A stretch of DNA of 64,000 nt, from the NCBI GenBank assembly GCA_010091925.1, contig WVID01000006.1. One strand, 5' to 3'. Of this stretch, positions 2,685 through 62,652 are shown piece after piece. A program made the translations under genes and the position numbers. Origin of the DNA: Nostoc sp. B(2019). Its GTDB lineage: Bacteria > Cyanobacteriota > Cyanobacteriia > Cyanobacteriales > Nostocaceae. The stretch's first letter is position 1, and each line of letters begins with the position of its first letter. A model generated the notes under the pieces. It was given only the letters and a program-made list of their open reading frames with translations. It ran no database searches and had not been told where the DNA came from.

Positions 2685-4157
2685 ATGCTTACCCAAGATA
2701 AAAAACAAATCAACTGGAAACCCATTATCAAAGCATTTGAGGCGGTACTTGGCAAAAATGGCGTGATACAACGTCGTGAGGAGCTTATTACTTATGAATG
2801 CGATGGTTTGACTGCCTATCGTCAACGTCCCGCGATGGTGGCGTTACCTAGAACTACAGAACAAGTTGCCGCTGTGGTGAAGATATGTAACCAATATTCT
2901 ATCCCCTTCATCGCACGCGGTTCTGGTACTGGTTTATCTGGTGGCGCTTTACCGTTGGAAAATTCTGTTTTGATTGTCACTTCATTAATGCGGCAAATCC
3001 TCAGTATAGATTTGGAAAATCAGAGAGCAGTCGTACAACCAGGGGTAATTAACAGTTGGGTAACACAAGCCGTCAGTGGTGCTGGATTTTACTATGCTCC
3101 CGATCCCTCTAGCCAAATTATCTGCTCTATTGGGGGCAACATTGCGGAAAACTCTGGTGGAGTGCATTGTTTGAAGTATGGTGTCACCACTAACCACGTT
3201 TTAGGATTAAAAATTGTCACACCTGAAGGAGAAATTATTGACTTGGGGGGACAAATCCCGGAAATGCCTGGTTATGATTTAACGGGTGTATTTGTCGGTT
3301 CTGAAGGCACTTTGGGTATTGCCACAGAAATTACCCTGCGAATTCTAAAAAGTGCAGAATCAATTTGTGTACTATTGGCAGATTTTACCAGCGTTGAAGC
3401 TGCTGGAGCCAGCGTTTCTGATATCATCAGTGCTGGGATTATTCCTGGTGGAATGGAAATGATGGATAACATCAGCATCAACGCGGTTGAAGATGTTGTA
3501 GCCACTAATTGTTATCCCCGCGATGCAACTGCCATCTTACTAGTAGAAATAGATGGTTTAGAAATTGAAGTAGCAGAAAATAAAAAGCGTATTACCAAAA
3601 TTTGTCAAGATAATGGTGCGCGTAACGTCACCACTGCTAATGACCCAGAAACCAGATTAAAATTGTGGAAAGGTCGCAAAGCTGCCTTTGCCGCCGCTGG
3701 ACATTTAAGTCCAGATTATTATGTTCAAGATGGTGTGATTCCTCGTACTCAATTGCCTTATGTTCTCCAAGAAATTGAGGCATTAAGTCAAAAGTATGGT
3801 TATCAAATTGCGAACGTATTTCACGCTGGCGATGGGAATCTCCACCCACTGATTCTTTTTGATAATTCTGTGCCTGGAGCATTAGAAAAAGTAGAAGAAG
3901 TTGGAGGAGAAATTCTTAAACTTTGTGTAAAAGTTGGTGGTAGTATTTCTGGTGAACATGGTATTGGTGCAGATAAAAAATGTTATATGCCAGATATGTT
4001 TAGTAAAGCTGATTTAGAAACTATGCAATGGGTGCGTCAAGTGTTTAATCCTCAAGGATTAGCAAATCCTGATAAGATATTCCCTACACCACGTACTTGT
4101 GGAGAAGCAGCAAACGCATCAAAGATCAAGCAATTTGAAGGAGTTGACAAATTTTAA
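2685..4157 (+). CDS. glcD: FAD-linked glycolate dehydrogenase/oxidase subunit GlcD
   Basis: 490 aa. It has an FAD-binding PCMH-type N-terminal region (ARGSGTGLSGGALP) followed by a GlcD-like C-terminal domain. Confidence 0.85.
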   Translation: MLTQDKKQINWKPIIKAFEAVLGKNGVIQRREELITYECDGLTAYRQRPAMVALPRTTEQVAAVVKICNQYSIPFIARGSGTGLSGGALPLENSVLIVTSLMRQILSIDLENQRAVVQPGVINSWVTQAVSGAGFYYAPDPSSQIICSIGGNIAENSGGVHCLKYGVTTNHVLGLKIVTPEGEIIDLGGQIPEMPGYDLTGVFVGSEGTLGIATEITLRILKSAESICVLLADFTSVEAAGASVSDIISAGIIPGGMEMMDNISINAVEDVVATNCYPRDATAILLVEIDGLEIEVAENKKRITKICQDNGARNVTTANDPETRLKLWKGRKAAFAAAGHLSPDYYVQDGVIPRTQLPYVLQEIEALSQKYGYQIANVFHAGDGNLHPLILFDNSVPGALEKVEEVGGEILKLCVKVGGSISGEHGIGADKKCYMPDMFSKADLETMQWVRQVFNPQGLANPDKIFPTPRTCGEAANASKIKQFEGVDKF

Positions 4158-57534: not shown

Positions 57535-57680
57535 AGGCAGTAAGCATCTTACAAAGTATTTTGGATTTTAAATAGTTGGTTATCGCTTTTATTTCCACAT
57601 TAGAAAAAATTAACTACATAACAAAAAACAAAAGGACTGAGTTTACCAGTCCTTTTTTATATTGATTTAATCTTTTTATC

Positions 57681-58142
57681 TTAATAACGAGACTTTTTGG
57701 TCTTTACCTTTTGCTTCCTACGCCGCCGTTCGCTAGCAGCAACCGCATGTTCCACCGGATAACCCACAACAGGAATTACCTGAAATTTGCGTTCTTCCTC
57801 TAACTTTTTCAGATTGGTGTAATCAACCCAGTGAATGCAATCAACCGGACAAGTGTCAATTGCCTCTTGGATGATTTCCTCTGCGTCCCCATCTTGGCGA
57901 ACCACGCGCGATCGCCCATAATCTGGTTCAATGTAAAAGGTGTTACGTGCAACGTGAGCGCAGTGCTTACAACCAATACAGGTGATTTCGTCAACATAAA
58001 CACCTTTTTGACGCAGCATACCACCCAATTCTGGTTCAAAACCAGAACGTTCAGGGGCATCCCGTAAGAAACCGCCTAATTCTGGTTCTAAACCGGAACG
58101 GTTGTCTTCTTGCTCTTCCGGCGACGGTAGGAAATCAGCCAT
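57681..58142 (-). CDS. 4Fe-4S ferredoxin-family protein
   Basis: The Cys pattern reads CIGCKHCAHV...CPVDC. An N-terminal internal duplication reads SGLEPELGGFLR / SGFEPELGGMLR. The start overlaps the ycf35 stop as TAATG. Confidence 0.75.
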   Translation of the reverse strand: MADFLPSPEEQEDNRSGLEPELGGFLRDAPERSGFEPELGGMLRQKGVYVDEITCIGCKHCAHVARNTFYIEPDYGRSRVVRQDGDAEEIIQEAIDTCPVDCIHWVDYTNLKKLEEERKFQVIPVVGYPVEHAVAASERRRRKQKVKTKKSRY

Positions 58143-58528
58143 TACGCACTCCAGCGCTGTACTACCAGACGAATCGAACCATCTTCATTTTTTTGTTGTT
58201 CAGCGACTTGAAAACCCACACGAGTAGTTTCTTTCACAACTGTTTGGTAAGCATAACGCTGGCTTACCTGGCGTAAGAAACCGTCCACAGATAAATTTTG
58301 CTGCCAATATTGTAAGTCAGCCACCAATTCATATTCTTTGCCATTCCATCTAAAGCCGATGTCATAGCCATTTTCCTGCTCAATAGTAACTTCGGCAGGA
58401 TGAGTTTGACCACGATAGCCACGTACCTCACGTGGGCCTGGTTTCCAGTCTATGCCCAATTCAGTCAGAGCGTCTTTCAAAGAATCAAGGTTACGGATTT
58501 GAGTCTTAATTTGGCTAAAGTGTGACAT
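58142..58528 (-). CDS. ycf35: Ycf35/DUF1257 protein
   Basis: 128 aa. It begins MSHFSQIKTQIRNLDSLKDALTELG, which is Ycf35-like. Confidence 0.6.
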   Translation of the reverse strand: MSHFSQIKTQIRNLDSLKDALTELGIDWKPGPREVRGYRGQTHPAEVTIEQENGYDIGFRWNGKEYELVADLQYWQQNLSVDGFLRQVSQRYAYQTVVKETTRVGFQVAEQQKNEDGSIRLVVQRWSA

Positions 58529-58567
58529 GGTGGTTGTGAATTAATAACACTAAACTACTGTGAAAAC

Positions 58568-58777
58568 TTACCAATCGCTGTAAGTGGTTTGCGTATTCGC
58601 CAGACTAGATTGCTGCACCTTAGCGGCGAAATATTCTGAGGTTGGCTCATGACTAAGTACTAGCCCCAACTGTGCTTCTATTGCTGCTGTAACCTCAGCG
58701 CAAGAAGCACCCACAATGCCAGTGACTTTCTCTTGTACCCGACCATCTGGATAAATTATGAACTCTAATGTCTCCAT
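58568..58777 (-). CDS. DUF2997-like small protein
   Basis: 69 aa. The sequence reads METLEFIIYPDGRVQEKVTGIVGASCAEVT. It lies immediately upstream of ycf35. Confidence 0.5.
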   Translation of the reverse strand: METLEFIIYPDGRVQEKVTGIVGASCAEVTAAIEAQLGLVLSHEPTSEYFAAKVQQSSLANTQTTYSDW

Positions 58778-59488
58778 GCTCTTGGCAAACCACTATAGTA
58801 CGCTTGAACTGTACTGCTCTAGCAAAATGCTAAAATTATAGCCGTCGGAACTTTTCTACTTAGATATAAACAAACTTGCCATTTGTTAACTAATGTTCCA
58901 TCTCTCAAAATATATATCTCAGAATCTTTACAAAAATTATTATTTTATGAGCGTACACGTCAGTTATTAGTTAGTGTCTCTTAACCTAATCAATTAGTCA
59001 AGTTCACAATTGAGCCTATAGGAGAAGTAGTAAAAGTCCTAAAAACAAGCATTAGCAGTAGTATGGCCAGCAAGTGAATTTACAAAAATATAAATTTTAT
59101 TGAAAAGCTTTATCATTATCATTAACTTGACCCTATTCACCCAATGATTACTTAGAAGGTAGATAAGTAGTGTTGGATGGAGTGCAGTGTAATCCAAAAG
59201 TAAGATTTTGGGGTATGCGATCGCATTAGGATTTATGTCTACATACGTAGGTCTAATCCAACCCAGGCATCGTATTAGCTCTTTGATATAGTCGCTTTAC
59301 CTTGCATCTAGTGTAAACAGATTTTTAGACTGCGATCGCCACAATATAGAGATAGTAAAAGTTTTTAACCTAAGCATGTTCTAGGTTTTCTGGCGTCAAC
59401 TATACAGCAAGGCGATCGCTTTAGAGTTTATACGTGTGATGCGTAGGCGTAGCCAGCCGTAGGCATCGCTTTTTGCACTAACGCTTAT

Positions 59489-59556
59489 CCTGTAACCATT
59501 TTCAATACTGAATCAGGAAATACTGGCTCAAAATGTAATAGTATTTTGAGTCATTT
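59489..59556 (-). pseudogene. degenerate duplicate of the 3' end of the DUF4926 gene
   Basis: It aligns to 60285..60348. The cores ACTGAATCAGG and CTGGCTCAAAATGTAA are conserved, but the reading frame is disrupted by stops. Confidence 0.5.
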
Positions 59557-59589
59557 GTATCACTCTAGATATTACAACCTCTAGATCGC

Positions 59590-59919
59590 TCACTCTGCAA
59601 ACATCTCAGCTAAGGTATCGAGAACATCTCTTTGTTCATGGTCACTAATTTGACCAAGCTGTTTGACCAATCTAGCTCTATCTACTGTACGAATTTGATC
59701 AAGAATAATTTGCCCATCTTTACCTTGAAACTGACAAGGTATGCGTGTGGGATATACTTGCCCCTTTGTAGTCATTGGAGCAACAATCACGGTAGCAATA
59801 TGGCGGTTCATCTCGTCTGGCGAAATCACTACACAGGGACGTGTCTTCTGAATTTCACTACCAATAGTGGGATCAAGATTAACTAAGAAAATATCAAAAC
59901 GCTTGACTACCATTCCCAT
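59590..59919 (-). CDS. mazF: MazF/PemK-family toxin
   Basis: FDIFLVNLDPTIGSEIQKTRPCVVISPDEMN, VAPMTT and DQIRTVDRARLVKQLGQIS are present. Confidence 0.8.
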   Translation of the reverse strand: MGMVVKRFDIFLVNLDPTIGSEIQKTRPCVVISPDEMNRHIATVIVAPMTTKGQVYPTRIPCQFQGKDGQIILDQIRTVDRARLVKQLGQISDHEQRDVLDTLAEMFAE

Positions 59920-60170
59920 TCAGCCTGATCCCAGTTTGTTACGCTTACGTCGTCATCTAGCAGAACATCATCATGTTGTTCAGCCATTGCTGCAAAAGCT
60001 TCGTCCCATCCAACTCGTAATTCTGGTGCTGCGCGAACAACTAGGTGATCACTATGAACCTCAATTTCAACCTCTGTGTGAATACCACTTTGCTCTAACA
60101 GGGGTTTGGGAATACGAACACCTTGAGAATTACCGATTTTCACAATTTTAGTTCTAATAGCTGCGCCCAT
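59907..60170 (-). CDS. mazE: AbrB/MazE-type (SpoVT_AbrB) antitoxin
   Basis: The sequence reads MGAAIRTKIVKIGNSQGVRIPKPLLEQSG. It overlaps the toxin by 13 nt. The ORF track opens at 60224. Confidence 0.7.
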   Translation of the reverse strand: MGAAIRTKIVKIGNSQGVRIPKPLLEQSGIHTEVEIEVHSDHLVVRAAPELRVGWDEAFAAMAEQHDDVLLDDDVSVTNWDQAEWEW

Positions 60171-60279
60171 ATTTAGATTACTTTGGAAATAATAGTAATT
60201 ACATTGTAGACACAGCTTTAGCAATGATCAAATGCAGCGAATCAATTAAACTTTAAATTTCAATACTGTAGGCGATCGC

Positions 60280-60528
60280 TTAGGCTGTCACCATTTCTGG
60301 GACTGAATCAGGGGATGCTGGCTCAAAATGTAACACCATAATTTGCTCTGGGCGTAAACCGACAGATTCGTATGTGCGCCCATTGCGATCGCTAAATTCA
60401 ACCTCAAACGCAGCGCCACCAGCTAATAATTCTACTACTGTGCCAACTTGACCACAGTACAGGTTATATTCAGGTAGATTAACTGTCAGTGCTACTACAT
60501 CCAGCAACTTGACCGTATTTTTAGTCAT
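60280..60528 (-). CDS. DUF4926-like small protein
   Basis: 82 aa. No family-diagnostic motif was identified in the sequence. The DUF4926 assignment rests on overall resemblance as recalled and was not checked. Confidence 0.5.
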   Translation of the reverse strand: MTKNTVKLLDVVALTVNLPEYNLYCGQVGTVVELLAGGAAFEVEFSDRNGRTYESVGLRPEQIMVLHFEPASPDSVPEMVTA

Positions 60529-60595
60529 CTTCTATCACTTCTAAATATTTACAGCAGATAGCAGGTTGTTAATCTTGGGACATCAGAACCATTTT

Positions 60596-60694
60596 CTATA
60601 ATCCCGTCTTTAGGTCTTTAATGCCTAAAGTTTTTTCTACAGCAGCTTCTACACCTTTTTCAACAGCTTTATTGGCAATATCTTCAAAACTCAT
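60596..60694 (-). CDS. candidate 32-aa small protein (MSFEDIANKAVEKGVEAAVEKTLGIKDLKTGL)
   Basis: An AGGAGA sequence lies 8 nt upstream of the ATG. The K/E/A-rich content resembles CsbD-like stress peptides. The ORF is below the track's length cutoff. Confidence 0.35.
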   Translation of the reverse strand: MSFEDIANKAVEKGVEAAVEKTLGIKDLKTGL

Positions 60695-60951
60695 AAATTA
60701 ATTTCTCCTAATCTGGTAAGCGATCTAATACTACTGTAGTACATTTAATACTAATTAAGTGGCAGTATTAATACTTAGATATTTCGTTACATCCCAAATC
60801 ACCAACGAAGACTTTCCAGTAAAAAAACGCATCGGTCAGCCGAAGAACCAAGGATAATAAAGCATAATTAGCCTCTATAGCTTTTAGCCATCAGCCACAA
60901 GCCGGAAACTGAGATGGTGAATGCTAAAAACTGTTAACTCAACTCAACAAA

Positions 60952-61962
60952 TTGGCCATGAATACAGAAAAAGCGAACAAAACAATCCGTGTCGGTGTCC
61001 TGGGTTTCGGCGGACTAGGACAAGCAGCCGCTAAGCTACTTGCTGGCAAACGGGAAATGATTTTAGTCGCAGCAGCAGATCAAAAAGGCTACGCTTACGC
61101 TGCTGATGGTTTAAATACTCAAGAATGCATTGCAACTTACCAGTCTCAAGGTTCAGTGGGTTATTTAGAGCCAGTTGGTAATTTAACAAATCAAAGTATT
61201 CAGGATTTAATCGAAAGTACACAAGCTGTAGATGGCTATTTTCTAGCTTTACCCAACCTACCTAATGACTTTATACCTAATGTAGCTAAGCAGTTTATCA
61301 AATCCGGCTGGCGTGGAGTGTTAGTAGATGCGATTAAGCGCACTAGTGCTGTAGAACAACTACTAGCAATGAAAGAGGAAATGCAAGCAGCCGGAATTAC
61401 CTACATGACAGGATGTGGGGCCACACCTGGATTGTTAACAGCAGCAGCAGCAATAGCCGCTCAAAGCTACGCGGAGATTCATCAAGTTGAAATTACTTTT
61501 GGCGTGGGAATTGCCAACTGGGAAGCTTACCGCGCCACAATCCGCGAGGATATTGGACACATGCCTGGTTATACAGTAGAAACTGCTAGAGCTATGAATG
61601 ATGCAGAAGTAGAGGCATTATTAGATAAAACTAATGGCGTGTTGACCTTAGAGAATATGGAACACGCCGATGATGTGATGCTAGAAGTAGCGGGAATTTG
61701 CGATCGCGATCGCGTTACTGTTGGTGGTGTAGTCGATACTCGCAATCCCAAAAAACCACTCAGTACTAACGTTAAGGTAACAGGGCGCACTTTTGAAGGT
61801 AAGATTTCCACTCATACCTTTACTCTCGGAGATGAAACCAGTATGGCAGCCAATGTCTGCGGCCCTGCCTTTGGTTATCTCAAAGCTGGTAGACAATTGC
61901 ACCAGCGCGGCATCTATGGAATATTTACTGCTGCCGAAATTATGCCCCAGTTTGTTAGGTAA
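60952..61962 (+). CDS. NAD(P)-binding Rossmann-fold oxidoreductase, family not resolved
   Basis: An N-terminal GxGxxG motif ([11 protein letters not shown]) is present, together with a GCGATPG motif. Confidence 0.4.
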
Positions 61963-62091: not shown

Positions 62092-62652
62092 CTAAGCTGG
62101 TGGAATTTCTGGAGACAAAGTATCTATGAGATTATCCTCAACTAACCATTGAGGCGTTTCAATGACAAATGGTAGTTCTGCTCCTATAAAGCCTCGTTGA
62201 ATGCATTCTGATGTCTCAGCAAAAACTACGAACAAAGGATATATAGTATTAGCACCCTCGCTCAAAATATGGCTGTGGCGAGGAGGCATTAGCCACTCAT
62301 AATCATTGTCTAGGCAAACTTGGGTTTGTCGCCAGCGTCCTAACAAGTCAGAAAAGTCTTCATGAGGACGATGAATAAAGAGCAAAATTTCTGCTCCAGT
62401 TTTAATTTTCCACTCAGGATCGCACATCAAAATTGCTACATCACAGGATAAGGAAGTCGCCTGTGGAACTGTCGTTATAGCGTTGCGGAGGCGAACAATT
62501 GGCAAAGGGATAGTGATAATACTTTCATCTGGACGGCGCAGACTGGGAATCATTTCCAAGTAAGGTCGGTGTTGCTTGAGTAAGGCGATCGCAGCTAGAT
62601 GATTGCTATACTCTGCCAAGCTCGCTTCATAGTGAGATTTTTGCACAGGCAT
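62092..62652 (-). CDS. hypothetical protein
   Basis: 186 aa. No motif was recognised. Confidence 0.35.
   Translation of the reverse strand: MPVQKSHYEASLAEYSNHLAAIALLKQHRPYLEMIPSLRRPDESIITIPLPIVRLRNAITTVPQATSLSCDVAILMCDPEWKIKTGAEILLFIHRPHEDFSDLLGRWRQTQVCLDNDYEWLMPPRHSHILSEGANTIYPLFVVFAETSECIQRGFIGAELPFVIETPQWLVEDNLIDTLSPEIPPA

What the first reader, a model, noticed from the sequence alone, without database searches (positions are those of the whole stretch)
59489..60528. mazEF cassette bracketed by a direct, degenerate duplicate of the DUF4926 gene 3' end
The last roughly 65 nt of the DUF4926 gene (60285..60348) recur, degenerate, at 59489..59556, immediately beyond the mazF stop. The shared cores are ACTGAATCAGG..ATRCTGGCTCAAAATGTAA. 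The motif TTCAATACTG also appears both at 60260 and in the distal copy. The distal copy is out of frame, so it is a relic. The arrangement is gene-3'end / mazE / mazF / repeat-of-gene-3'end. This is what insertion of a TA cassette by recombination at or near the end of DUF4926 would leave behind, or alternatively a duplicated attachment-like site.
Basis: seen in the sequence. Interest (0 to 1): 0.6.

Follow-up and report, generated by a model that had tools for sequence, protein, structure and literature searches.

The report
Decayed second DUF4926 gene behind mazEF
The repeat is real: it is the decayed remnant of a second copy of a small putative immunity gene, left behind when a mazEF toxin-antitoxin pair came to lie between the two copies by recombination in a variable toxin-antitoxin region of Nostoc genomes, which is an ordinary kind of genomic scar.

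Summary
The window comes from Nostoc sp. B(2019). The direct repeat exists: 59482-59538 and 60277-60333 share 57 nt at 81% identity, and these are the only two copies in 64 kb. On the minus strand the distal copy matches the last 17 codons and the stop codon of DUF4926, codon for codon.

Directly upstream of it, 59541-59576 matches the DUF6883 stop codon, the intergenic spacer and DUF4926 codons 1-5. The distal copy is therefore a DUF4926 pseudogene with a 179-nt internal deletion. mazF ends just before the last codons of a lost DUF6883 gene.

An empty-site allele exists. In Nostoc sp. CCCryo 231-06 an intact DUF6883-DUF4926 pair is followed directly by the spacer that follows the relic here. 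Sister strain MG11 keeps mazEF and the relic but has lost the intact DUF4926.

The interval between the conserved 336-aa gene and DUF2997 ranges from 467 bp to 5.9 kb in 52 related loci plus the window. At least two other cassettes there are bracketed by DUF4926 repeats of different lengths, each with an empty allele elsewhere.

The best explanation is recombination at a border of homology: one homologous crossover and one illegitimate junction. This resembles toxin displacement in T6SS and Rhs loci. It is not an attachment site. The finding is ordinary and of modest interest.

The parts
60952..61962 (+). Conserved 336-aa dehydrogenase-like gene that forms the left border of the variable region
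   Evidence: Weak Pfam ELFV_dehydrog match. Relatives at 85-94% identity in 80 Nostocales genomes served as the synteny anchor.
60596..60694 (-). 32-aa ORF, the N-terminal stump of a 192-aa Gly/Ala-rich protein, cut by a deletion at about 60604/60605
   Evidence: Cluster C35 is intact in L019, L043 and L056. Window homology to DUF6883 begins only at 60604.
60549..60604 (-). Remnant of DUF6883 (predicted BECR-Tox3 RNase toxin): only about the last 18 codons and the stop survive (the 76 nt at 60529-60604 also include the 20-nt spacer before DUF4926)
   Evidence: 93% nucleotide identity to the DUF6883 3' end in L001 and other loci. Family assignment from Pfam on the cluster representative and from bioRxiv 10.64898/2026.08.28.747851.
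60280..60528 (-). Intact DUF4926 gene (82 aa), the putative immunity partner of DUF6883; this is the proximal copy
   Evidence: Pfam PF16277, 89.6 bits. The best 120 listed homologues are 83-100% identical at near-full length. The C-terminal tail LHFEPxSPDSVPEMVTA is conserved in the subfamily.
60277..60333 (-). Proximal 57-nt repeat: DUF4926 codons 66-82, the stop codon and 3 nt
59907..60170 (-). mazE antitoxin (87 aa); a promoter-like site lies at 60231-60203
   Evidence: Pfam PF04014, 32.2 bits. Promoter scan. Overlaps mazF by 13 nt.
59590..59919 (-). mazF (PemK) toxin, 109 aa
   Evidence: Pfam PF02452, 112.9 bits. The best 120 listed homologues are 80-93% identical and come from several cyanobacterial lineages.
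59577..59589 (-). Novel junction between the end of the mazEF cassette and the distal DUF6883/DUF4926 remnant
   Evidence: Homology to the DUF6883 stop region begins at 59576. MG11 has 10 extra nt here.
59541..59576 (-). Distal remnant, 5' part: DUF6883 stop (TGTAA), intergenic spacer and DUF4926 codons 1-5 (ATGACTCAAAATAC)
   Evidence: Local alignment score 24 to 60515-60553. This is the best match in the window (next best 17), and 0 of 5000 shuffles reach it. Alignments.
59482..59538 (-). Distal remnant, 3' part: DUF4926 codons 66-82, the stop and 3 nt, decayed.
   Evidence: 81% identity to 60277-60333. 9 of the 11 differences are G/C to A/T (read). MG11 has two indels in it.
59139..59481 (-). 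Spacer that follows the resident DUF4926. It is shared with the empty-site allele L019 and includes a small insert in a HIP1 site at 59441-59469.
   Evidence: Window 59311-59538 aligns collinearly with L019 downstream of its intact DUF4926. Other mazEF-bearing loci lack this spacer.
58568..58777 (-). DUF2997 gene, the right border of the variable region (followed by DUF1257 and a ferredoxin)
   Evidence: Pfam. Conserved in 52 related loci with both borders, plus the window.

Best explanation
mazEF lies between two copies of DUF4926, the small gene that normally follows the predicted RNase toxin gene DUF6883.

The upstream copy (60280-60528) is intact. The downstream copy (59482-59576) is a pseudogene. 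It keeps the last bases of DUF6883, the intergenic spacer, codons 1-5, and codons 66-82 with the stop. It has lost 179 nt in between. This much is shown.

mazF therefore ends where the body of a DUF6883 toxin gene should be. The downstream copy sits in the position the intact gene occupies in a genome that lacks mazEF. This too is shown.

The most likely origin is inferred. Two versions of this variable region recombined, one carrying DUF6883-DUF4926-mazEF and one carrying DUF6883-DUF4926-spacer. One crossover was homologous, in shared flanking or DUF6883/DUF4926 sequence. The other join was illegitimate, just after the mazF stop. This is homology-facilitated illegitimate recombination, or the equivalent repair of a break copied from another DUF4926 locus.

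The displaced copy became redundant. It decayed through AT-biased substitutions and an internal deletion.

Later deletions removed the DUF6883 body in B(2019) and the intact DUF4926 in MG11.

Homology between arrays ends at the DUF4926 stop codon, so illegitimate joins cluster there. This explains why DUF4926 3' pieces recur in this region in other genomes.
For: - Repeat and in-register coding.
- 5' part of the distal copy.
- Empty-site allele L019, where DUF6883-DUF4926 is followed by the same spacer, including the same small insert in a HIP1 site.
- MG11 (L014) is collinear at 96.5% over window 57600-60264, including the relic. It lacks 60265-60570. That deletion cuts DUF6883 mid-codon and is flanked by ATT, so the window arrangement is ancestral to both strains.
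- L024 keeps the same post-mazF junction and part of the remnant.
- DUF4926-mazE-mazF travels as a block. L094 is contiguous at 83% identity in a different neighbourhood. L046, L024, L070 and L097 show the same adjacency.
- The relic evolves neutrally. 9 of 11 differences are G/C to A/T, and MG11 has indels in it.
- The interval ranges from 467 to 5852 bp and holds many toxin-antitoxin-like pairs.
- Independent parallels exist. In L044, C31-PIN_12 lies between DUF4926 and a copy starting at codon 46, with L042 as the empty allele. In L043, a DUF6887-like ORF lies between DUF4926 and a copy starting at codon 69, with L046 as the empty allele.
- DUF6883/DUF4926 is proposed as a toxin-immunity pair.
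- The same model has been proposed for T6SS effector-immunity arrays.
Against: - No allele with an intact distal DUF4926 behind mazF was found in the 52 related loci. A metagenome scan for a mazF end followed by a DUF4926 start gave 0 hits.
- Donor and recipient cannot be told apart, so microhomology at the junction cannot be assessed.
- The distal remnant is no closer to L019's gene or to the proximal copy than to other genomes' copies.
- In the other type-A mazEF loci the post-mazF similarity to the DUF4926 5' region is not significant (p 0.1-0.4). The age of the event is therefore uncertain.
- Natural transformation has not been shown for this strain.
Confidence: 0.7

Rival explanations
1. 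Campbell-type integration. A circular DNA carrying DUF4926 (or part of it) plus mazEF was excised from another array. It integrated by a single homologous crossover within the resident DUF4926/DUF6883 sequence, giving gene-cassette-gene. The distal copy then decayed.
For: A single crossover with a circle produces exactly this outcome: direct repeats bracketing a cassette, with an empty-site allele. The repeats in L044 extend about 80 nt past the stop on both sides of the cassette, as expected if a circle carried that segment. The DUF4926-mazEF block occurs in different neighbourhoods.
Against: No circular form or junction read is available. The sequence data cannot separate this from one-sided homologous plus illegitimate recombination, because both need one novel junction after mazF.
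Confidence: 0.15
2. Local tandem duplication of the DUF6883-DUF4926 module within this lineage, followed by replacement of the second DUF6883 by mazEF and decay of the second DUF4926.
For: Tandem toxin-immunity modules are common. The distal copy keeps the DUF6883 stop, the spacer and the DUF4926 start in the right order.
Against: The distal remnant is not closer to the proximal copy than to copies in other genomes; the proximal copy ranks fourth. None of the 52 related loci has two intact tandem modules. DUF4926-mazEF adjacency is seen elsewhere as a block. This model needs more events.
Confidence: 0.08
3. The DUF4926 tail is an attachment or integron-like site used by a site-specific recombinase to capture toxin-antitoxin cassettes.
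For: Cassettes bracketed by DUF4926 3' pieces recur. XisH/XisI genes occur in some versions of the region. HIP1 sites lie at two boundaries.
Against: No integrase or transposase is found in 49.6-64 kb of the window. Repeat lengths and breakpoints differ: from before the start codon, codon about 41, 46, 51, 53, 66, 69 and 74. The two copies here share no perfect core longer than 16 nt. The distal copy includes the gene's 5' end, which an att model does not predict. HIP1 occurs once per kb anyway.
Confidence: 0.04
4. Chance similarity, or a generic dispersed repeat unrelated to DUF4926.
For: Nostoc genomes are rich in short repeats, and one lies 12 nt away at 59441-59469.
Against: There are only two copies in 64 kb and none in shuffles. 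The repeat matches codon for codon, including the stop. The tail is conserved in the protein family. An orthologous intact gene sits at the same place in L019.
Confidence: 0.01

Closest known systems
Displacement of T6SS effector genes with retention of orphan immunity genes in Vibrio cholerae (Kirchberger et al. 2017, PMC5361080), and C-terminal displacement and orphan modules in Rhs/CDI loci (Poole et al. 2011, PMC3150448)
   Same: - A conserved upstream sequence serves as the homology anchor.
- New material is added behind it.
- The old toxin is displaced.
- The old immunity gene, or a 3' piece of it, is pushed downstream and left as an orphan.
- Different strains carry arrays of different content.
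- Homology-facilitated illegitimate recombination is the proposed mechanism.
   Different: - No secretion or delivery system is linked here.
- The modules are small cytoplasmic toxin-antitoxin-like pairs.
- The incoming cargo (mazEF) is unrelated to the displaced DUF6883 toxin.
- The displaced immunity gene is not kept intact but is decaying.
Homology-facilitated illegitimate recombination during natural transformation (de Vries and Wackernagel 2002; Prudhomme et al. 2002; Meier and Wackernagel 2003, as cited in PMC5361080; E. coli conjugation, PMC3240628)
   Same: The product has one homologous side and one novel, non-homologous junction. Foreign or extra DNA is trapped at the border of a homologous segment.
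   Different: Here this is inferred from comparative genomics only. The donor, the microhomology at the junction and the uptake route are all unknown. The outcome duplicates the anchor rather than deleting recipient DNA.
Chromosomal mazEF (PemIK-type) type II toxin-antitoxin operon
   Same: The order is antitoxin then toxin, with a 13-nt overlap and strong Pfam matches. The operon is patchily distributed and highly conserved across cyanobacteria.
   Different: Nothing unusual about the operon itself. Its activity was not tested.
Integrative elements that duplicate the 3' end of their target gene (tRNA or protein-gene att sites)
   Same: There is a direct repeat of a gene's 3' end on both sides of inserted DNA, with the intact gene on one side.
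   Different: There is no integrase and no constant core. Repeat length varies between instances, and the distal copy also contains the gene's 5' end.

Membership tests
Type II toxin-antitoxin system mazEF (PemK/MazF toxin with MazE/AbrB-type antitoxin) | Toxin matches PemK/MazF and antitoxin matches the MazE family, both above the curated cut-offs | tested here: met
   PF02452 scores 112.9 bits against a cut-off of 23.1. PF04014 scores 32.2 bits against a cut-off of 24.7.
Type II toxin-antitoxin system mazEF (PemK/MazF toxin with MazE/AbrB-type antitoxin) | Bicistronic operon with the antitoxin first and overlapping or adjacent reading frames | tested here: met
   mazE (59907-60170) and mazF (59590-59919) lie on the same strand and overlap by 13 nt.
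Type II toxin-antitoxin system mazEF (PemK/MazF toxin with MazE/AbrB-type antitoxin) | Toxin is an mRNA interferase neutralised by the antitoxin | not testable with these tools
   This needs expression and rescue assays.
DUF6883 (BECR-Tox3) / DUF4926 toxin-immunity pair | A DUF4926 gene immediately downstream of a DUF6883 gene | tested here: met
   The pair is intact in L001-L012, L019, L038, L056 and other loci. In the window only about the last 18 codons and the stop of DUF6883 remain upstream of the intact DUF4926, and only its stop region remains upstream of the distal copy. The association is reported in bioRxiv 10.64898/2026.08.28.747851.
DUF6883 (BECR-Tox3) / DUF4926 toxin-immunity pair | DUF6883 is toxic and DUF4926 neutralises it | not testable with these tools
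   This is only predicted in the literature.
Homology-facilitated illegitimate recombination product | One side of the inserted DNA is joined through extended homology | tested here: inconclusive
   DUF6883/DUF4926 and both flanks are 85-93% identical between genomes, so anchors exist. The actual crossover point cannot be located.
Homology-facilitated illegitimate recombination product | The other side is a novel junction without homology, usually with a few bases of microhomology | tested here: inconclusive
   The novel junction lies at 59577-59589, right after the mazF stop. Microhomology cannot be judged without the donor sequence.
Homology-facilitated illegitimate recombination product | An allele without the insertion exists in related genomes | tested here: met
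   L019 serves for the window, L042 for L044, and L046 for L043.
Site-specific integration (att site or integron-like cassette capture) | A linked tyrosine or serine recombinase | tested here: not met
   No recombinase is found among the ORFs of 90 aa or more (and the smaller gene calls near the finding) that were scanned in 49.6-64 kb, nor in the array gene clusters scanned. XisH/XisI occur in other genomes only.
Site-specific integration (att site or integron-like cassette capture) | A constant core sequence at every cassette boundary | tested here: not met
   Repeat lengths run from 48 to about 280 nt. 5' breakpoints lie before the start codon or at codons of about 41, 46, 51, 53, 66, 69 and 74.
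Polymorphic-toxin orphan arrays (Rhs, CDI, T6SS effector-immunity) | Linked delivery machinery or a large delivery domain upstream | tested here: not met
   The neighbours are a dehydrogenase-like gene, DUF2997, DUF1257 and a ferredoxin. DUF6883 proteins here are 117-160 aa.
Polymorphic-toxin orphan arrays (Rhs, CDI, T6SS effector-immunity) | Displaced 3' ends or orphan immunity genes lie downstream of the current module | tested here: met
   This holds in the window, MG11, L031, L043, L044 and L045.

The most novel reading that the evidence does not exclude
The conserved DUF6883-DUF4926 module may act as a recombinase-independent capture platform. Homology between genomes (and between loci within a genome) ends exactly at the DUF4926 stop. 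One-sided recombination would therefore repeatedly trap new toxin-antitoxin or defence cassettes behind it and push older copies downstream. This would build the variable region between the 336-aa gene and DUF2997 in Nostocales, much as T6SS and Rhs arrays grow.
Probability: 0.25. Interest if true: 0.5.

Novelty: new member of a known kind. Interest (0 to 1): 0.3.

Why it matters
The finding gives a clean, dated example, with empty-site alleles, of how toxin-antitoxin cassettes are added to a chromosomal hot spot in filamentous cyanobacteria without any dedicated mobility gene. It extends the displacement logic described for secreted polymorphic toxins to small cytoplasmic modules.

It also shows sister strains losing opposite partners of the predicted DUF6883/DUF4926 toxin-immunity pair. 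That bears on which partner is dispensable.

It does not reveal a new kind of element.

Tried and rejected
- Dispersed-repeat idea. Rejected: only two copies in the window.
- Snap-back footprint. The 13-bp palindrome at 59524-59553 first looked like a snap-back footprint at an illegitimate junction. Rejected: its left arm is the DUF4926 start (ATGACTCAAAATAC), brought next to codons 65-70 by the internal deletion.
- Terminator for mazF. The palindrome scores as terminator-like only on the plus strand. The RNA fold of the minus strand is not unusual (z = -1.39).
- Shared breakpoint at codon 48 in L016, L017, L025 and L031. Rejected: it is an artefact of a roughly 24-nt small insert in the HIP1 site of the gene, and homology continues upstream in L025 and L031.
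- DUF4926 5' remnant behind mazF in the other type-A mazEF loci (L044, L045, L046, L053). Not significant (p 0.1-0.4).
- Nearest-neighbour analysis of the distal remnant to identify donor versus resident. Uninformative.
- Metagenome scan for a mazF end followed within 20-50 nt by a DUF4926 start, looking for an undecayed intermediate. It gave 0 hits.
- Rfam search of 56-63 kb. Nothing found.
- Exact-protein look-up of the window's MazF. It returned only one short contig carrying the window's gene order (L013).
- Elhai et al. 2008 could not be read.

Full report
**Source and genes.** The DUF4926 protein of the window is 100% identical to a protein of Nostoc sp. B(2019). All genes at the finding are on the minus strand. 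Pfam confirms mazF/PemK (59590-59919), mazE (59907-60170) and DUF4926 (60280-60528). It also confirms the neighbours DUF2997, DUF1257 and a ferredoxin on one side, and a 336-aa dehydrogenase-like gene (60952-61962, plus strand) on the other.

**The observation.**
- The repeat finder reports one direct repeat, 59482-59538 and 60277-60333, of 57 nt at 81% identity.
- Its core occurs nowhere else in the 64 kb window and never in shuffles.
- Read on the minus strand, the distal copy translates as LHFEPVFPDSVLKMVTG* and the gene end as LHFEPASPDSVPEMVTA*.
- The Pfam DUF4926 domain covers residues 8-65, so the repeat begins just after the domain.
- The tail is nevertheless a conserved feature of this 82-aa subfamily: all 120 closest homologues carry LHFEPxSPD...MVTA-like ends.
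- The repeat is therefore real, is derived from DUF4926, and is not a generic element.

**The distal copy is larger than reported.**
- A blastn-short comparison of the gene with the region behind mazF matched the first 14 nt of the gene (ATGACTAAAAATAC) to ATGACTCAAAATAC immediately upstream of the 57-nt repeat.
- A global alignment extends this through the 20-nt spacer between DUF6883 and DUF4926 and the DUF6883 stop (TGTAA).
- The 36-nt match (59541-59576 against about 60515-60553) is the best match for that segment in the whole window: score 24 against a next best of 17. None of 5000 shuffles reaches it.
- The distal copy is thus a DUF4926 pseudogene lacking gene nt 15-193 (179 nt, a frameshift).
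- This explains the 13-bp palindrome at 59524-59553. It is the gene's start placed next to codons 65-70.
- It also explains why the 3' piece is out of frame relative to the remnant ATG.
- Of the 11 differences between the 57-nt copies, 9 are G/C to A/T in the distal copy.
- In the sister genome the relic has two indels. It is evolving neutrally.

**Related genomes.** The 336-aa gene was used as a synteny anchor and 80 Nostocales loci were fetched. With the loci fetched earlier through DUF4926, 52 related loci plus the window contain both the anchor and DUF2997. The interval between them ranges from 467 bp (Brasilonema; 620-760 bp in Fischerella, Westiellopsis, Pelatocladus and others) to 5852 bp.

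Its content is a changing set of small paired genes:
- mazEF, of two types;
- DUF6883/DUF4926;
- DUF6887;
- UPF0175/DUF3368;
- DUF433/DUF5615-PIN;
- ParE pairs;
- DUF2442/DUF4160;
- PIN_12;
- DUF6972;
- XisH/XisI.

This is a toxin-antitoxin hot spot.

**Key alleles.**
1. L014 (Nostoc sp. MG11) is collinear with window 57600-60264 at 96.5%, including the relic, mazF and mazE. It lacks 60265-60570, which is the intact DUF4926. The deletion starts inside the DUF6883 3' end and is flanked by ATT. The window arrangement is therefore ancestral to both strains, and MG11 lost the intact gene later.
2. L019 (Nostoc sp. CCCryo 231-06) has DUF6883 and an intact DUF4926, followed directly by sequence homologous to window 59311-59481. 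That sequence includes the same small insert in a HIP1 site, and the common flank follows it. There is no mazEF.
3. L046 (Nostoc sp. DedSLP01) has DUF4926-mazE-mazF without relic or spacer.
4. L024 (aff. Roholtiella LEGE 12411) has flanks 95% and mazEF 93% identical to the window. It keeps the same sequence after the mazF stop and part of the remnant (CTGTAA ... CCAGAGTGATTCAC), then has a deletion. The junction is therefore older than the B(2019)/MG11 split.
5. L094 carries DUF4926-mazE-mazF as one contiguous block (83% identity over 869 nt) next to different genes. L097 has a DUF4926 tail remnant in front of mazE. DUF4926 and mazEF therefore travel together.

**Window-specific change.** Upstream of 60604 the DUF6883 body is missing. 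A deletion joins the first 30 or so codons of a 192-aa Gly/Ala-rich gene (the 32-aa ORF at 60596-60694) to the 3' end of DUF6883, of which about 18 codons and the stop remain.

**The pattern recurs.** A nucleotide search with the DUF4926 module finds fragments in many loci. Nearly all of them include the gene's 3' end or its 3' half. Three cases with bracketing repeats and an empty allele are clear:
- The window itself.
- L044: DUF4926 plus about 80 nt, then C31-PIN_12, then DUF4926 from codon 46 plus the same 80 nt, then DUF2442/DUF4160. L042 is the empty allele.
- L043: DUF4926, then a DUF6887-like ORF, then DUF4926 from codon 69. L046 is the empty allele.

L031 and L045 show further variants. 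The repeat lengths (48 to about 280 nt) and the breakpoints differ.

**Mechanism.**
- Shown: there are two DUF4926 copies with mazEF between them.
- Shown: the distal copy lies in the ancestral position, preceded by the last bases of DUF6883, and a novel junction follows directly after the mazF stop.
- Inferred: one homologous crossover and one illegitimate join took place between two versions of the region. This is homology-facilitated illegitimate recombination, or break repair copied from another DUF4926 locus and then end-joined.
- Between arrays, homology runs through DUF6883-DUF4926 and stops about 5 nt after the DUF4926 stop. That makes the gene's end a border where such events should cluster.
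- A recent preprint assigns DUF6883 to a BECR RNase toxin family, with DUF4926 as the likely immunity partner.
- The arrangement then parallels the displacement of T6SS effectors with retention of orphan immunity genes, for which the same mechanism was proposed, and the Rhs/CDI orphan arrays.
- Campbell-type integration of a circular DUF4926-mazEF molecule would give the same product and cannot be excluded.
- A site-specific mechanism is unlikely. No recombinase is nearby, there is no constant core, and the repeats vary in length.

**What could not be resolved.**
- Which partner was donor and which recipient.
- Whether there is microhomology at the junction.
- How old the event is. The similarity behind mazF in the other type-A loci is not significant.
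- A metagenome scan for an undecayed intermediate found nothing.
- A nearest-neighbour analysis of the remnant was uninformative.
- No Rfam family matches the region.

**Verdict.** It is wrong on the position of the junction and on the attachment-site alternative. This is an ordinary product of genome evolution and a new example of a known kind of process. Its modest wider interest lies in the recurrent use of the DUF4926 border in a Nostocales toxin-antitoxin hot spot.

Noticed in passing
window 59441-59469; also L016, L017, L025 and L031 inside DUF4926 fragments: GCGAT|GCCTACGGCTGGCTACGCCTA|CGC looks like a roughly 21-nt mini-element inserted into a HIP1 site (GCGATCGC). About 20 copies, nearly all in the same GCGAT...CGC context (a few with one changed base), occur in 1.2 Mb of related Nostoc loci. 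One sits in the HIP1 site at DUF4926 codons 46-48 in several genomes and breaks BLAST alignments there. It resembles the small dispersed repeats of Elhai et al. 2008 (own knowledge; the paper is not held).
   Followed up: partly
window 60596-60694 (minus strand), junction at about 60604/60605: The 32-aa ORF is the N-terminal stump of a 192-aa Gly/Ala-rich protein with no Pfam match. That protein is intact in L019, L043 and L056. A deletion fuses the stump to the 3' end of DUF6883.
   Followed up: partly
L014 (Nostoc sp. MG11) against window 60265-60570: Sister strains lost opposite partners of the predicted toxin-immunity pair. B(2019) lost the DUF6883 body and kept DUF4926. MG11 lost DUF4926 through a 306-bp deletion flanked by ATT, and its DUF6883 is split and lacks its last codons.
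   Followed up: partly
window 58778-60951 and the same interval in 52 related loci: The interval between DUF2997 and the 336-aa gene is a hot spot, ranging from 467 to 5852 bp. It holds changing sets of small toxin-antitoxin-like pairs, Fic, XisH/XisI and unannotated genes (clusters C9, C24, C31, C45, C58).
   Followed up: partly
window 59524-59553: An imperfect 13-bp palindrome scores as terminator-like on the plus strand. It was created by the internal deletion, which placed the DUF4926 start next to codons 65-70. No function is evident.
   Followed up: yes
window 59590-59919 and 60280-60528; The 82-aa DUF4926 and the 109-aa MazF are 80-95% identical across distant cyanobacteria: Nostocales, Leptolyngbyaceae and Phormidesmis for DUF4926, and Nostocales, Pleurocapsa, Pseudanabaena and Picosynechococcus for MazF. 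This suggests frequent horizontal exchange or unusually strong constraint.
   Followed up: no
L031, about 3000-3060 of the oriented interval: A fragment of mazF (the ...RTVDKARL... region) is fused directly to DUF4926 at about codon 41, upstream of a second, type-B mazEF. This is another layer of older displaced modules.
   Followed up: no
window 62092-62652 (minus strand): A 186-aa ORF with no Pfam match. A gene of the same size with no annotation lies next to the anchor gene in L095 and L097, so it is probably a conserved gene of unknown function.
   Followed up: no
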